From positions 1-57,192 of the forward strand of contig JAYWAJ010000452.1 in NCBI GenBank assembly GCA_043782525.1: a stretch of DNA of 57,192 bases, read 5' to 3'. Under the pieces are notes generated by a model. The model was not told the origin of the DNA. It made no database searches and was given only the letters and a program-made list of their open reading frames with translations. The position numbers and the translations under genes are program-made. How positions within the stretch are numbered: the first letter of the stretch is position 1; every line of letters starts with the position of its first letter. This document shows, piece by piece, positions 18,729 through 29,168 of this stretch. Origin of the DNA: Deltaproteobacteria bacterium. Lineage in GTDB: Bacteria; Myxococcota; Myxococcia; Myxococcales; 40CM-4-68-19.

Positions 18729-19898
18729 TCAGCGGGACGCCCAGGGGCGGGACTCGAGCCGCCGCGCGGCGCCCACCAGGCGGTCCAGCCGGTCGACCAC
18801 GCCGACCAGCGCGGGCGAGGCCGGAGTGGGCGACTGCGCGATGCGCCCGCGCAGCGTGACGAGGCGGCGCGCGACCTCCCGCAGATCGCCCGAGACCGCC
18901 GAACGCGGCGAGAAGAGCAGCCGCTCGCCGAGGATCTGGATCACCGCGGCGACCGGCGCCGCCGCGAAGAGGCCGGGGACTCCGTAGGCGTCGGCCAGCG
19001 CCACCAGCGTGACGATCTCGAGGATGGCGTTGCTGCGACGGAGCGGAAGCGCGCGGGCGCCGACCACGGCGATGAGCATGAAGGTCGCCGCCGTCAGCAG
19101 GCCCGCGCCGGCCGCCGTCACCGTCCCGTCGGCGAAGCCCACCAGGATGGCCCCCAGCACGGCGCAGGGGATCCCGGCCACGGGAATGAGCCGGGCCAGC
19201 CCGGCGACCACCGCCGGCAGCGTCGCGAAGCGCAGGCCCAGCGCGTGAAAGCCCAGGTCGAGGATGACGATGGCGACCAGGCTCTGCGCCAGCTGCGAGC
19301 GCAGGTACGCTCCCACGCCGGCCTTGGCGGCGCGCCAGGTCTCCCGCGTGCGCACGCGCAGCCCGGACGAGAGCAGCGAGAGGCCCCAGTGCTCGAAGGC
19401 GTCGCGGTTGGCGAGCCAGTAGACGCTCATGGCGAGGACGATGACCGCGCGCCCGAAGAGCTCGACCGCGCCCATGGTGATGCCCAGGACTGCTTGGGCG
19501 CCCGAGCCCGGGGTCTGCGAGCCGAGTGCGCGGTAGAGCTCCGCCGAGGCGGGCAGGCGCTCGACCAGCACCCGGCGCAACAGGTTGAGCTGCGAGCCGC
19601 TGGCGCCGTCCCAGGCGTGCATCAGCTCGTTGGCGGCGTCCTGGGCCTCGGAGAGGAGCGGCGGCACCAGCGCCATTGCCAGGACGGCGACGCCCGCCAA
19701 CAGGCCCGCGAAAGTCAGGGCGAGCGCGATCGAGCGCCGGACGCGGCGGGCGACGAGGAAGTCCACCGCCGGCCGCACCATGGCCACGGTGGCGAGCGCC
19801 AGCACGAAGAGGAAGATGGCTTCGCGGAACTGCCAGAGCAGCGCCGCGCCCGCGACGGTGGCGAAGACCAGCGCGACGAAGAACGCGAGGCGCTTCAC
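18729..19898 (-). CDS. AI-2E family (PerM/UPF0118) transporter, copy 2
   Basis: Polytopic membrane protein with the AI-2E-type C-terminal core 'LARLIPVAGIPCAVLGAILVGF'. GTGA overlap with the upstream paralogue. Confidence 0.8.
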   Translation of the reverse strand: MKRLAFFVALVFATVAGAALLWQFREAIFLFVLALATVAMVRPAVDFLVARRVRRSIALALTFAGLLAGVAVLAMALVPPLLSEAQDAANELMHAWDGASGSQLNLLRRVLVERLPASAELYRALGSQTPGSGAQAVLGITMGAVELFGRAVIVLAMSVYWLANRDAFEHWGLSLLSSGLRVRTRETWRAAKAGVGAYLRSQLAQSLVAIVILDLGFHALGLRFATLPAVVAGLARLIPVAGIPCAVLGAILVGFADGTVTAAGAGLLTAATFMLIAVVGARALPLRRSNAILEIVTLVALADAYGVPGLFAAAPVAAVIQILGERLLFSPRSAVSGDLREVARRLVTLRGRIAQSPTPASPALVGVVDRLDRLVGAARRLESRPWASR

Positions 19899-26610: not shown

Positions 26611-29168
26611 GACATCTCCCCAATCAAGGCGATGGCGCGGTCGTACTGGTAGTCGCCGATGAGCACCCGCAGGCGGGCGAGCGCCTCGCCGCCGGCGAGG
26701 TCCAGCGTGGCCAGCTCGGTGTTGATGGCGGAGAGATCGCCCGCGGCGAGGAAGCCCGAGAGCGCGACCAGCCTTCCCGGCACGGGGGGAGCGCCGGTGG
26801 CGGCCGGCACGGGCACGCCCAGCGGCGCCAGCGACAAAAGCACGGTGCGCGCCTCCGCCTTGACGGTGGCGAGGAGCTCGTCGAGCGGTCCGCGGCGGGC
26901 GCGCCCGGCGGCTTCGAGCGCTGCCGCCGCCCAGCGCAACCGATCGACGGCGAGGGTGCCGGCCGAGCCGGAGAGCGAGTGCGCGTGCAGGCGGACGGCG
27001 TCGTGATCGCGGGCGGCGACGGCGGCCTCGAGGACCGCGAGCCCGCGCGGCAACCCTTCGGCGAAGCGCGCCAGCAGCCGTTCGAGGGTCTCCCGCGAGA
27101 CGCCCAGCCGCTCGTAGGCGCCCTGCATGTCCACGCCCGCGAGCGCGCCGGGCATCTGGGGCACGACGGCGGGAAGGCCGTCGGGATCGGTATCGTCGGA
27201 AGGAAGACCCACCTGCCGCCGCAGCGCTTCCAGCAGCGCGTGGCGGTCGATGGGCTTGGGCACGTAGTCGTTCATCCCCGCGGCGAGGAAGGCCTCCTGG
27301 TCGCCGGTCATCGCGTTGGCGGTCATGGCGATGATGGGCAGCTTGGCGAAGCGCGGGTCGAGGCGGATGCGCCGGGTGGCCTCGATGCCGTCCATCTCCG
27401 GCATCTGCACGTCCATGAGCACGCAGGCGTAGGTCCGCGCGAGGGCCATCTTCACCGCCTGCACGCCGTTGACGGCCACCTCGATGTGGAAGCCGAGGCG
27501 CGAGAGCAGCTCGGTGGCCACGAAGCGGTTGGCCTCGTTGTCCTCGGCGAGCAGGACCCGCAGGCCCTTGAACTCGCCCGCCCCCGCCGAGGCGCGCGGC
27601 GTGGTCAGCGTCGCGCCTGCCGCCAGGGCCCGGCTGGTGGTGCGCGGTTGGGCCACGCCGAAGCGGGCGGTGAGCGTGAAGGTGCTGCCCACGCCGGGCT
27701 CGCTCACCAGCGAGAGATCCCCGCCCATCAGCCGCGCCAGCCGCAGGCTGATGGCGAGCCCCAGCCCGGTGCCGCCGTAGCGCCGCGTGGTCGAGCTGTC
27801 CGCCTGCGAGAAGGCCTGGAAGAGCTGGCCCTGCTTCTCGGTGGCGATGCCGATGCCCGAGTCGCGCACCGCGAAGGCCAGCTCGACCGGGATCACCGAC
27901 TCCGGGGTGACGCTGACGTGCAGCGCCACCTCGCCGCGCTCGGTGAACTTGAAGGCGTTGCCCACCAGGTTGATGAGCACCTGGCGCAGGCGGTGGGCGT
28001 CGCCGATCAGCGTCTGGGGGACGTCGAGGCCGGCGTGCACCACCAGCTCGACGCCGTTCTCGATCACCTTGGCGCGGAAGATCTGGGTGACCTCGTCGAG
28101 CACCTCCATCAGCTCGAAGGGCACCGACTCCAGCTCCAGCTTCTCCGCCTCGATCTTGGAGAAGTCGAGGATGTGGTTGATGAGCGCGAGCAGCCCCCGC
28201 GCCGCGGTCTCGATCACCGTGACGTATTGCCGCTGCTGCTGGGTGAGCTCGGTCTCGAGCGCGAAGGCCGCCGTGTTGAGGATGGCGTTCATCGGCGTGC
28301 GGATCTCGTGGCTCATGGTGGCGAGGAAGGCGCTCTTGGCGCGGTTGGCCGCCTCGGCCGCCTCGCGGACCTTGCCCAGCTCGATCTCCTGGAGCTTGCG
28401 GGCGGTGATGTCGGCGATGACGGTGATGCCGCTGATGAAGCGCCCGTCGGGGCCGCGGATGGCGGAGGCGGCCACGTCGCCCCAGCGCTGGGTGCCGTCC
28501 TTGCGCAAAAAGAGGCTCTCCCAGCGCCAGGAGTCGGCCTCGCCGGCGATGAGCTTGCGGATCTGCTCGGCGGCGCGCGGCCGGTCGTCGGGGTGGGTGT
28601 AGCCGATCAGGGTCTGCCCGAGCAGGTCCTTGCGCTCGACGCCGAAGAACTCGAGCGAGTTGTCGTTGACCTCGACGAAGCGGCCCTGATCGTCGTTGGA
28701 CATGATGCCGACGCCGCCGTTCTCGAAGAGCGCCTTGAAGAACTCGTCACGCAGGCGGAGCGCCTCGGTGGTCCGGCGCCGCTCGGTGACGTCGAACATG
28801 CTGCCGACCAGGAAGGCCGGGGCGCCGCGCTCGTCGAGCACCGCCTGGCCGTTGTCGTAGACCCAGCGCTCGCCGCCGTCGGCGTGGCGGATGCGGTACT
28901 CGACCGCGTAGGGCTTGTGGCCGGCGATGGCCGCCTCGATGGCCTTGCGCAGCTCGGGCGCGTCGTCCGGATGCGCCACCGTCTCCAGGCCGAGGAAGCT
29001 GGCCGCCGGCCAGCCGGTGAGCGCCTGGATGGCGGGGGTGACGAAGTCGAGCTTCCAGCGCTTGTCGAGGGCGAAGCGGTAGACCGCGCCGGGCAGGCTG
29101 CCGATGAAGGTCCGCATGAGCGCGTCGCTGCGCCTCAGCTCGACTTCGTCGGTCTCGGGGGGCGACAT
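26607..29168 (-). CDS. Hybrid sensor histidine kinase (2x PAS, HisKA, HATPase_c, REC, HPt)
   Basis: H-box 'FLATMSHEIRTPMNAI'. N/G boxes 'LINLVGNAFKFT', 'DSGIGI', 'GGTGLGLAIS'. REC 'VLLAEDN...VLMDVQMPEMDGIEAT'. HPt 'LHAHSLSGSAGTLA'. ATGA overlap with the next gene. Confidence 0.92.
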   Translation of the reverse strand: MSPPETDEVELRRSDALMRTFIGSLPGAVYRFALDKRWKLDFVTPAIQALTGWPAASFLGLETVAHPDDAPELRKAIEAAIAGHKPYAVEYRIRHADGGERWVYDNGQAVLDERGAPAFLVGSMFDVTERRRTTEALRLRDEFFKALFENGGVGIMSNDDQGRFVEVNDNSLEFFGVERKDLLGQTLIGYTHPDDRPRAAEQIRKLIAGEADSWRWESLFLRKDGTQRWGDVAASAIRGPDGRFISGITVIADITARKLQEIELGKVREAAEAANRAKSAFLATMSHEIRTPMNAILNTAAFALETELTQQQRQYVTVIETAARGLLALINHILDFSKIEAEKLELESVPFELMEVLDEVTQIFRAKVIENGVELVVHAGLDVPQTLIGDAHRLRQVLINLVGNAFKFTERGEVALHVSVTPESVIPVELAFAVRDSGIGIATEKQGQLFQAFSQADSSTTRRYGGTGLGLAISLRLARLMGGDLSLVSEPGVGSTFTLTARFGVAQPRTTSRALAAGATLTTPRASAGAGEFKGLRVLLAEDNEANRFVATELLSRLGFHIEVAVNGVQAVKMALARTYACVLMDVQMPEMDGIEATRRIRLDPRFAKLPIIAMTANAMTGDQEAFLAAGMNDYVPKPIDRHALLEALRRQVGLPSDDTDPDGLPAVVPQMPGALAGVDMQGAYERLGVSRETLERLLARFAEGLPRGLAVLEAAVAARDHDAVRLHAHSLSGSAGTLAVDRLRWAAAALEAAGRARRGPLDELLATVKAEARTVLLSLAPLGVPVPAATGAPPVPGRLVALSGFLAAGDLSAINTELATLDLAGGEALARLRVLIGDYQYDRAIALIGEMS

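What the first reader, a model, noticed from the sequence alone, without database searches (positions are those of the whole stretch)
18729..29168. Partner-switching module with no sigma factor, embedded in an Mla-type lipid-transport operon
Genes overlap by 1-4 nt or are separated by only 2-4 nt (ATGA, GTGA, TGATG junctions) in this order:
- hybrid His-kinase
- REC-PP2C-HATPase
- STAS protein
- STAS-MlaE permease
- MlaF ATPase
- MlaD/MCE
- PqiC-like lipoprotein
- AI-2E transporter, then a second AI-2E transporter

Classical partner switches (RsbU/V/W, SpoIIE/AA/AB) end on a sigma factor, and none is encoded here. Instead there are two STAS domains, one free and one fused to the permease. In E. 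coli the Mla ATPase is regulated by the STAS protein MlaB.

From this I infer that phosphorylation-controlled STAS switching gates an envelope lipid transporter directly. That would be an unusual output for this signalling logic.
Basis: inference. Interest (0 to 1): 0.75.

Follow-up and report, generated by a model that had tools for sequence, protein, structure and literature searches.

The report
Signalling module joined to lipid-transporter operon
A real, tightly packed operon in an uncultured myxobacterium joins a known type of phosphorylation switch to a known type of envelope lipid transporter, but related genomes show the join is recent and lineage-specific, so direct control of the transporter is unlikely.

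Summary
Nine minus-strand genes (29168..18729) carry exactly the domains listed, and every junction lies between a 4-nt overlap and a 4-nt gap.

- **Signalling module.** It has a soluble PAS hybrid kinase with an Hpt domain, a REC-PP2C-HATPase response regulator and a SpoIIAA-type STAS protein. This is the HptB/HsbR/HsbA (CrsR/CrsA) design, whose known partners are encoded elsewhere, so a missing sigma gene is normal.
- **Lipid transporter.** STAS-MlaE, MlaF, a long MlaD and a PqiC-like lipoprotein have the same architecture as Brucella MpcEFDA. The fused STAS is the MlaB equivalent and has an invariant Gly where MlaB has Thr52, so it cannot be phosphorylated there.
- **Two AI-2E permeases.**

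The comparative evidence is as follows:
- None of 42 other MlaE loci carries a PP2C, an RsbW-like kinase or a free STAS within 10 kb.
- The full arrangement exists only in close relatives (response regulator at least 84% identical).
- At 72-78% identity the module is followed directly by the AI-2E pair, by a convergent Mla operon, or by neither.

The most likely link is co-expression, probably from a conserved sigma-54-type promoter. Direct gating is not excluded.

The parts
29235..29249 (-). Sigma-54-type -24/-12 element GGCACGTTCGCTGCA, 66-80 nt upstream of the kinase ATG. It is the probable promoter of the operon.
   Evidence: It was found by pattern search. The same element lies upstream of the orthologous kinase in L134 (identical) and L043 (GGCATGTCCGCTGCA). 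Across the whole window the pattern is not enriched (41 matches against 54 expected).
29284..29308 (-). GC-rich hairpin between the upstream Ice_binding gene and the promoter element. It is a likely terminator of the upstream gene or a regulator-binding site.
   Evidence: RNA fold of -33.1 kcal/mol. It is conserved in L043.
26607..29168 (-). Soluble hybrid histidine kinase: PAS x2, HisKA (H-box at residue 286), HATPase_c, REC and Hpt (HSLSGS at residue 730).
   Evidence: Pfam. It has no hydrophobic segments.
25036..26610 (-). Response regulator with REC, PP2C (SpoIIE) phosphatase and RsbW-like Ser kinase (HATPase_c_2) domains, in the HsbR/CrsR domain order.
   Evidence: Pfam. The catalytic residues are invariant in 21 orthologues: D16/D17/D59/K111; GGDLYD, GDVSGKG, TDG and SDD; E426/E427/N431, D461/G463 and G486/G489.
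24653..25033 (-). Free single-domain STAS protein (126 aa) of the SpoIIAA/RsbV type. The phospho-acceptor is Ser62 (Ser64 if counted from GTG 25039) in the FLSSGG motif.
   Evidence: Pfam STAS 1.4e-15. The best PDB matches are SpoIIAA proteins, with the Ser aligned. FLSSGG is invariant in 8 orthologues.
23485..24648 (-). MlaE permease with an N-terminal MlaB-like STAS_2 domain (MpcE-type). Gly73 sits at the position of MlaB Thr52.
   Evidence: Pfam. The MlaE core matches PDB MlaE at 1.7e-27. The profile of the STAS part matches E. coli MlaB best, at 2.6e-4, with G73 aligned to T52. D72 and G73 are invariant.
22736..23488 (-). MlaF-type ABC ATPase.
   Evidence: Pfam ABC_tran 5.3e-29. It is 60-78% identical in the Myxococcota operons.
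21771..22736 (-). MCE protein (MlaD domain) with one N-terminal transmembrane segment and a C-terminal extension of about 190 aa. At 321 aa it has the length of MpcD.
   Evidence: Pfam MlaD covers residues 39-132. The hydrophobic segment is at 9-36. MpcD is 331 aa and E. coli MlaD is 183 aa.
21169..21774 (-). PqiC/MpcA-like lipoprotein (ABC_trans_aux) with a signal peptide and lipobox Cys (…ALASAGC).
   Evidence: Pfam PF03886 3.3e-13.
19895..21166 (-). AI-2E family permease no. 1.
   Evidence: Pfam 1.7e-55. Its orthologue follows the STAS gene directly in L048 and L050/L051.
18729..19898 (-). AI-2E family permease no. 2.
   Evidence: Pfam 1.4e-29. It is always paired with no. 1 in relatives.
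17884..18687 (-). Ice_binding-like (DUF3494) protein, 41 nt downstream, with its own ribosome-binding site. It may be the last gene of the unit.
   Evidence: Pfam 3e-77. It holds the same position in L043 and L044.
16497..17840 (+). FHA and sigma-54 enhancer-binding protein, convergent with the end of the operon. It is a candidate activator of the sigma-54-type promoter.
   Evidence: Pfam. It recurs next to the module in L043, L049 and L134.

Best explanation
The stretch is a composite operon made of three modules that exist separately in related Myxococcota.

**Module 1: signalling.** This is a phosphorelay-driven partner switch of the HptB/HsbR/HsbA type.
- A soluble PAS hybrid kinase autophosphorylates and passes the phosphate His, Asp, then Hpt-His to Asp59 of the response regulator.
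- That step sets the balance between the regulator's PP2C phosphatase and its RsbW-like kinase.
- The balance sets the phosphorylation state of the free STAS protein at the Ser of FLSSGG.
- By analogy with HsbA and CrsA, the STAS protein then binds or releases the regulator's own kinase domain and a partner that is not encoded in this operon.

**Module 2: transport.** This is an Mpc-type (chimeric Mla-Pqi) envelope-spanning lipid ABC transporter. Its permease carries its own non-phosphorylatable MlaB-like STAS domain, which serves the ATPase in cis.

**Module 3.** A pair of AI-2E permeases.

**The link.** The link between switch and transporter is most simply co-transcription, probably from a sigma-54-type promoter served by the neighbouring FHA enhancer-binding protein. 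It is not direct gating.

**Shown versus inferred.**
- Shown: the domains, the catalytic residues, the gene packing and the distribution among relatives.
- Inferred: the direction of phosphotransfer, the identity of the STAS partner and the use of the promoter.
For: - **Domains and junctions:**
- **Catalytic and phospho-acceptor residues:** conserved.
- **Design precedent:** HsbR and CrsR have the same REC-PP2C-kinase design, with partners encoded in trans (PMC6482189).
- **Transporter precedent:** the four-gene cassette matches the Brucella MpcEFDA architecture, including the MlaB-like N-terminal STAS (PMC12436622; PDB profile hit to MlaB at 2.6e-4).
- **Cassette without the switch:**
  - The cassette is conserved in at least 24 Myxococcota loci that lack the switch.
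  - None of 42 loci has a PP2C, a kinase or a free STAS by profile HMM.
- **Switch without the cassette:**
  - The switch is followed by the AI-2E pair in L048 and L050/L051.
  - It is followed by a convergent Mla operon in L049.
  - It is followed by unrelated genes in L133.
  - None of 80 more distant response-regulator loci has MlaE or AI-2E.
- **Distribution:** the full arrangement occurs only in relatives whose response regulator is at least 84% identical.
- **Promoter:** a conserved sigma-54-type element lies upstream of the kinase.
Against: - Tight translational coupling of nine genes usually signals a shared function.
- The module has no DNA-binding output, so its target must be a protein, and membrane proteins of the same operon are natural candidates.
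- The switch, the Mla cassette, the AI-2E pair and the Ice_binding genes stay within about 10 kb of one another in three different arrangements (window, L048, L049). This could reflect selection for proximity.
- No trans-encoded partner was identified.
Confidence: 0.55

Rival explanations
1. One reading: the unphosphorylated (or phosphorylated) free STAS binds MlaF, or competes with the fused MlaB-like STAS. The phosphorelay would then switch the lipid transporter on or off directly.
For: - The STAS and STAS-MlaE genes are 4 nt apart (or overlap, in L132) in the window clade.
- MlaB binding is needed for MlaF function, a phosphomimetic T52E weakens that binding, and MlaB phospho-regulation is an open question (PMC7367683).
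- A switch acting on a STAS-bearing envelope enzyme is now known in Anabaena (PMC13555669).
Against: - The fused STAS is intact and conserved in this clade, so each MlaF already has a partner in cis.
- The fused STAS has Gly at the acceptor position.
- The free STAS is of the SpoIIAA type, gives no MlaB hit, and is only 27% identical to the fused STAS over 60 aa.
- The linkage is confined to one subclade: none of 42 other loci has it.
- The free STAS sequence is almost the same in lineages where Mla is not adjacent.
Confidence: 0.12
2. The free STAS acts on the AI-2E permease pair. That pair would be the older operonic partner of the module, and the Mla cassette was inserted between them later.
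For: - In L048 (response regulator 77% identical) and L050/L051 (72%), the STAS stop overlaps the start of AI-2E no. 1, and the orthologous pair follows.
- AI-2E genes lie within 10 kb in L049 and L134 as well.
- Both permeases have cytoplasmic C-terminal tails of 60-75 aa.
Against: - L133 has the module without AI-2E.
- None of 80 more distant response-regulator loci has AI-2E.
- A literature search found no precedent for a STAS and AI-2E interaction.
- AI-2E genes also follow Mla cassettes that lack the switch (L001, L005, L008, L017). The AI-2E association may therefore be with the envelope neighbourhood and not with the switch.
Confidence: 0.18
3. The regulator's kinase domain sequesters a sigma factor encoded elsewhere, as CrsR does with RpoS, and the free STAS releases it. 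In that case this would be a classical sigma-controlling switch after all.
For: The domain design is the same as in CrsR and HsbR, whose third domain binds RpoS (PMC6482189).
Against: - No sigma-70-family gene was found in the window.
- One relative (L133) has a Sigma70_r4_2 gene about 3 kb away, but it is not conserved.
- Orthology to CrsR or HsbR was not tested.
Confidence: 0.15

Closest known systems
Pseudomonas aeruginosa HptB-HsbR-HsbA and Shewanella CrsR-CrsA partner-switching systems
   Same: - The response regulator has the same REC, PP2C, RsbW-like kinase order.
- An adjacent single-domain STAS protein has a phosphorylatable Ser.
- Input comes from hybrid kinases through an Hpt step.
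- No sigma factor gene lies in the cluster.
   Different: - Here the Hpt domain is fused to the hybrid kinase and is not a separate protein.
- The genes sit in an operon with transporters.
- Partners equivalent to FlgM, RpoS or HsbD were not identified.
- Sequence orthology was not tested.
Brucella abortus MpcEFDA, the chimeric Mla-Pqi lipid transport system (EMBO J 2025)
   Same: - The four genes are in the same order.
- The MlaE permease has an N-terminal MlaB-like STAS domain.
- There is an MlaF ATPase.
- The single-MCE protein is about 320-330 aa with a long C-terminal extension.
- There is a PqiC-like outer-membrane lipoprotein.
   Different: - It is only distantly related: about 36% identity to a Hyphomicrobiales permease (L025).
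- Here it is embedded between a signalling module and AI-2E genes.
- No functional data exist for the myxobacterial system.
E. coli MlaFEDB with the free STAS protein MlaB
   Same: MlaE, MlaF and MlaD homologues are present, together with a STAS domain that resembles MlaB best among solved structures.
   Different: - The STAS domain is fused to the permease.
- Gly replaces Thr52.
- MlaD is almost twice as long.
- A PqiC-like lipoprotein takes the place of MlaC and MlaA in the locus.
Anabaena HenR/All4160 partner-switching-like control of a glycosyltransferase
   Same: A REC-PP2C phosphatase and Ser kinases act on a STAS domain, giving a non-sigma, envelope-related output.
   Different: In Anabaena the phosphorylated STAS is the one fused to the enzyme. 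Here the fused STAS lacks the acceptor residue and only the free STAS has it.
Vibrio fischeri SypE-SypA
   Same: A bifunctional kinase and phosphatase response regulator controls a STAS protein whose target is not a sigma factor and is still unknown.
   Different: By my recollection (not checked here), the SypE domain order is kinase, REC, PP2C. SypE-SypA sits in a polysaccharide locus.

Membership tests
HsbR/CrsR-type partner switch (REC-PP2C-kinase regulator plus STAS) | Response regulator with REC, PP2C phosphatase and RsbW-like kinase domains, in that order | tested here: met
   Pfam: REC 12-122, SpoIIE 191-381, HATPase_c_2 394-514.
HsbR/CrsR-type partner switch (REC-PP2C-kinase regulator plus STAS) | Adjacent single-domain STAS protein with a phospho-acceptor Ser at the SpoIIAA Ser58 position | tested here: met
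   The alignment to SpoIIAA structures places the second Ser of FLSSGG on the acceptor. The motif is invariant in orthologues.
HsbR/CrsR-type partner switch (REC-PP2C-kinase regulator plus STAS) | Catalytic residues of REC, PP2C and kinase intact | tested here: met
   The relevant columns are invariant in a 21-sequence alignment.
HsbR/CrsR-type partner switch (REC-PP2C-kinase regulator plus STAS) | Input through an Hpt phosphorelay from hybrid kinases | tested here: inconclusive
   An Hpt domain is present at the C-terminus of the adjacent hybrid kinase. Phosphotransfer itself cannot be tested here.
HsbR/CrsR-type partner switch (REC-PP2C-kinase regulator plus STAS) | STAS or kinase domain binds an anti-sigma or sigma factor (FlgM, RpoS) or HsbD | not testable with these tools
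   No such gene lies in the window. Binding needs an experiment or multimer modelling.
Mpc-type chimeric Mla-Pqi transporter | Four-gene operon of permease, ATPase, MCE protein and lipoprotein | tested here: met
   The operon is conserved in at least 24 Myxococcota loci.
Mpc-type chimeric Mla-Pqi transporter | MlaE permease with an N-terminal STAS domain homologous to MlaB | tested here: met
   Pfam STAS_2 plus MlaE. The profile of the N-terminal domain hits E. coli MlaB best, at E=2.6e-4.
Mpc-type chimeric Mla-Pqi transporter | MCE protein about twice the length of MlaD, with a helical C-terminal needle | tested here: inconclusive
   The length is 321 aa and the MlaD domain covers only residues 39-132. 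The helical nature of the extension was not modelled.
Mpc-type chimeric Mla-Pqi transporter | PqiC-like outer-membrane lipoprotein | tested here: met
   PF03886 3.3e-13. A signal peptide and lipobox Cys are in the sequence.
Canonical Mla system (MlaFEDB plus MlaC and MlaA) | Separate MlaB protein, periplasmic MlaC and outer-membrane MlaA | tested here: not met
   The STAS domain is fused to the permease. No MlaC or MlaA family hit occurs among the operon genes. The rest of the genome was not available.
Classical sigma-controlling partner switch (RsbU/V/W-SigB, SpoIIE/AA/AB-SigF) | Cognate sigma factor gene in the same operon | tested here: not met
   No sigma-70-family domain was found in the operon or in the flanking ORFs scanned.

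The most novel reading that the evidence does not exclude
In this myxobacterial subclade, the phosphorylation state of the free SpoIIAA-type STAS protein may directly control a membrane transporter encoded in its own operon. The target would be either the Mpc-type lipid transporter, through competition with or support of the fused MlaB-like domain at MlaF, or the AI-2E permease pair. This would give a natural example of phospho-STAS control of envelope transport.
Probability: 0.25. Interest if true: 0.7.

Novelty: new member of a known kind. Interest (0 to 1): 0.3.

Why it matters
If the free STAS did act on the transporter, this locus would be a natural test bed. How STAS domains regulate Mla-type ABC transporters, and whether phosphorylation is involved, was raised as an open question for E. 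coli MlaB (PMC7367683).

As the evidence stands, the locus mainly shows two things:
- An HsbR/HsbA-type signalling cassette moves between envelope-related gene neighbourhoods in Myxococcota.
- Mpc-type (Mla-Pqi chimeric) transporters, recently described in Brucella, are widespread and conserved in Myxococcota.

Both points are useful for annotation, but neither is surprising.

Tried and rejected
1. **Metagenome scan anchored on the response regulator.** Only distant relatives (34-56% identical) came back. They served as an outgroup census (none of 80 has MlaE or AI-2E) but not for the orthologue census. That census relied on twelve individual contig look-ups.
2. **AlphaFold2 of STAS-MlaE with a shallow 16-sequence alignment.** Mean pLDDT was 54.7 and pTM 0.35. 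This is too low for a fold search, so the model was not used. The STAS part does show the expected strand and helix order.
3. **Window-wide search for sigma-54 promoters.** The pattern is not enriched (41 matches against 54 expected). Only the site upstream of the kinase is kept, because it recurs in orthologous loci.
4. **Consensus sigma-70 promoter and terminator scan.** It found no promoter-like site. It found no convincing terminator at any of the operon's tight gene junctions either.
5. **Multimer modelling.** Modelling the free STAS with MlaF, with STAS-MlaE or with the kinase domain was not possible with the tools.
6. **FHA domain as a reader of phospho-STAS.** This idea was considered and set aside. 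From my own knowledge (not checked here), FHA domains read phospho-Thr, whereas the STAS acceptor is Ser.

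
Full report

Yes.

| Gene | Coordinates | Content |
|---|---|---|
| Hybrid kinase | 29168..26607 | PAS x2, HisKA, HATPase_c, REC, Hpt; 853 aa; no hydrophobic segment |
| Response regulator | 26610..25036 | REC, SpoIIE/PP2C, HATPase_c_2 |
| Free STAS | 25033..24653 | single STAS domain |
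| STAS_2-MlaE | 24648..23485 | permease with N-terminal STAS |
| MlaF-type ATPase | 23488..22736 | ABC_tran |
| MlaD/MCE protein | 22736..21771 | 321 aa |
| Lipoprotein | 21774..21169 | ABC_trans_aux (PqiC-like) |
| AI-2E permease no. 1 | 21166..19895 | AI-2E family |
| AI-2E permease no. 2 | 19898..18729 | AI-2E family |

- The junctions, in gene order, are -4, +2, +4, -4, -1, -4, +2 and -4 nt.
- Two starts needed correction:
  - The STAS gene most likely begins at ATG 25033, behind an AGGAG site. This is the 126-aa form called in every relative.
  - MlaD begins at ATG 22736, which gives the TGATG junction.
- An Ice_binding-like gene follows after 41 nt.
- No terminator-like site of any weight lies at any of the operon's tight gene junctions.
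- No sigma-70-family gene was found among the ORFs scanned across the 57-kb window.
- The window has about 70% G+C.
- Its nearest named relatives are Myxococcota metagenome-assembled genomes.

**2. What the parts are**

*Signalling module.*
- REC, PP2C, then RsbW-like kinase is the domain order of Pseudomonas HsbR and Shewanella CrsR. These work with the STAS proteins HsbA and CrsA and receive phosphate through an Hpt step from hybrid kinases.
- Their partners (FlgM, RpoS, HsbD) are encoded elsewhere (PMC6482189).
- Here the catalytic residues of all three domains are invariant in 21 orthologues.
- The kinase carries its own Hpt domain.
- The free STAS aligns best to SpoIIAA structures (E=1.4e-7). 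The second Ser of FLSSGG falls on the SpoIIAA phospho-acceptor.
- Regulator and STAS pairs of this kind are common. Several of the 80 more distant loci have a STAS gene right after the regulator. One database protein (P0226) fuses the two.
- A partner switch without a sigma gene in cis is therefore the norm for this design and not an anomaly.

*Transporter.*
- The four genes have the architecture recently described for Brucella abortus MpcEFDA, a chimeric Mla-Pqi system (PMC12436622):
  - an MlaE permease with an N-terminal STAS homologous to MlaB;
  - MlaF;
  - an MCE protein of about 330 aa, against 183 aa for MlaD;
  - a PqiC-like lipoprotein.
- A profile of the fused STAS domain finds E. 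coli MlaB as its best solved relative (E=2.6e-4).
- That alignment places the invariant Gly73 on MlaB Thr52, the position phosphorylated in other STAS proteins. The fused STAS is therefore the MlaB equivalent and cannot be phosphorylated at that site.
- The free and fused STAS domains are only 27% identical over 60 residues.
- STAS_2-MlaE fusions are abundant. There were 3672 hits at E<=1e-10, and all 120 hits listed carry PF13466 except one truncated 317-aa entry (P0005).
- The fusions also occur outside Myxococcota.

**3. Is the switch linked to the transporter beyond this genome?**

*Census anchored on the permease.*
- A scan of one genome per species gave 39 loci, and contig look-ups added more.
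- The four-gene cassette is conserved at 56-78% identity in at least 24 Myxococcota loci.
- None of the 42 loci outside the window's own clade has a PP2C, an RsbW-like kinase or a free-type STAS within up to 10 kb. This holds by tblastn and by profile HMMs built from the window's orthologues.

*Census anchored on the response regulator.*

| Regulator identity to window | Locus | Arrangement |
|---|---|---|
| 84-100% | L043, L044/L045, L132, L135 | Full arrangement as in the window |
| 77% | L048 | STAS stop overlaps the start of the orthologous AI-2E pair; Mla cassette about 7 kb away on the other strand |
| 76% | L049 | Mla cassette converges on the STAS gene; the AI-2E pair lies upstream |
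| 72% | L050/L051 | Regulator, STAS, AI-2E, AI-2E; no Mla within 10 kb |
| 77% | L133 | Neither Mla nor AI-2E adjacent |
| 78% | L134 | Contig ends within the STAS gene, so downstream genes are unknown; an AI-2E gene and Big_5/Ice_binding genes lie upstream on the other strand |
| 34-56% | 80 metagenome loci | No MlaE or AI-2E |

- The free STAS is 69-91% identical across all these arrangements, and FLSSGG is invariant. It shows no obvious change where Mla is adjacent.
- The simplest reading is that the kinase, regulator and STAS trio is the stable unit. The AI-2E pair is its more frequent operonic neighbour.
- On that reading the Mla-type cassette came to lie between them in one subclade. This is an inference from parsimony, not a rooted phylogeny.

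**4. Points in favour of some functional relation**
- The switch, the cassette, the AI-2E genes, the Ice_binding-like genes and an FHA sigma-54 activator stay within about 10 kb of each other in three different arrangements (window, L048, L049).
- AI-2E and Ice_binding genes also flank cassettes that lack the switch (L001, L005, L008, L017).
- A sigma-54-type element, GGCACGTTCGCTGCA, lies 66-80 nt upstream of the kinase start. It recurs upstream of the orthologous kinase in L043 and L134, next to the FHA enhancer-binding protein.
- Together these suggest a co-regulated envelope neighbourhood. They do not show a protein-level link.

**5. Verdict on mechanism**

My best explanation is a composite operon (confidence about 0.55).
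- An HsbR/HsbA-type switch sets the phosphorylation state of the free STAS. Its partner is the regulator's own kinase domain plus a protein that is not yet identified and is probably encoded elsewhere.
- It is co-transcribed with an Mpc-type lipid transporter that carries its own constitutive MlaB-like domain, and with two AI-2E permeases.

Direct control remains possible but less likely:
- Control of the AI-2E pair: about 0.18.
- A CrsR-like hold on a distant sigma factor: about 0.15.

- MlaB binding controls MlaF, and MlaB phospho-regulation is an open question (PMC7367683).
- A partner-switching-like module in Anabaena acts on a STAS-bearing glycosyltransferase (PMC13555669). There, however, the phosphorylated STAS is the fused one, which is the reverse of the situation here.

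**6. Novelty and score**
- Each module is a new member of a known kind.
- The operonic combination is new as far as the searched literature shows. It is lineage-restricted and best explained by rearrangement.
- Interest is 0.3. The most novel reading not excluded is phospho-STAS control of a transporter encoded in the same operon. I give it about 0.25 probability, and it would merit about 0.7 if true.

Noticed in passing
window 29235-29249 (-), with 29284-29308 and 29323-29342: A sigma-54-type -24/-12 element lies upstream of the kinase gene. It is preceded by a strong hairpin and a direct repeat GCGGACGCT x2. The element and the repeats recur upstream of orthologous kinases in L043 and L134, next to an FHA sigma-54 activator gene.
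   Followed up: partly
window 29363-30946 (-), 17884-18687 (-), 14969-16207 (-): Three Ice_binding-like (DUF3494) paralogues flank the operon, one of them with two Big_5 domains. Such genes recur around the switch and around Mla-type cassettes in relatives (L008, L043, L048, L049, L133, L134). Their role is unknown.
   Followed up: partly
L001 13410-14606; L005 about 5103-6011; L008 about 13629-14558; L017 about 13960-14442: In Myxococcota loci that lack the switch, an AI-2E family gene often follows the PqiC-like lipoprotein gene of the Mla-type cassette directly. This hints at a recurrent association between AI-2E permeases and Mpc-type transporters.
   Followed up: partly
database proteins P0226, and P0156-P0192: Two natural fusion variants of the response regulator appear in the database. 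One 670-aa protein adds a STAS domain to REC-PP2C-kinase. Many 755-809-aa proteins add an Hpt domain; the few that carry a source name are from Rokubacteria/Methylomirabilota.
   Followed up: no
window 34801-39528 (-): A second large hybrid histidine kinase has four or more PAS domains, HisKA, HATPase_c and REC but no Hpt domain. It could feed the same or another phosphorelay.
   Followed up: no
window 39529-42777 (-) and 46499-48469 (+): Two large proteins carry BNR/Sortilin-Vps10 repeats, and the ORFs between them have no Pfam match.
   Followed up: no
window 10607-11062 (+): A small protein matches Host_attach and bacterial eRF1-like family 12 (baeRF_family12).
   Followed up: no
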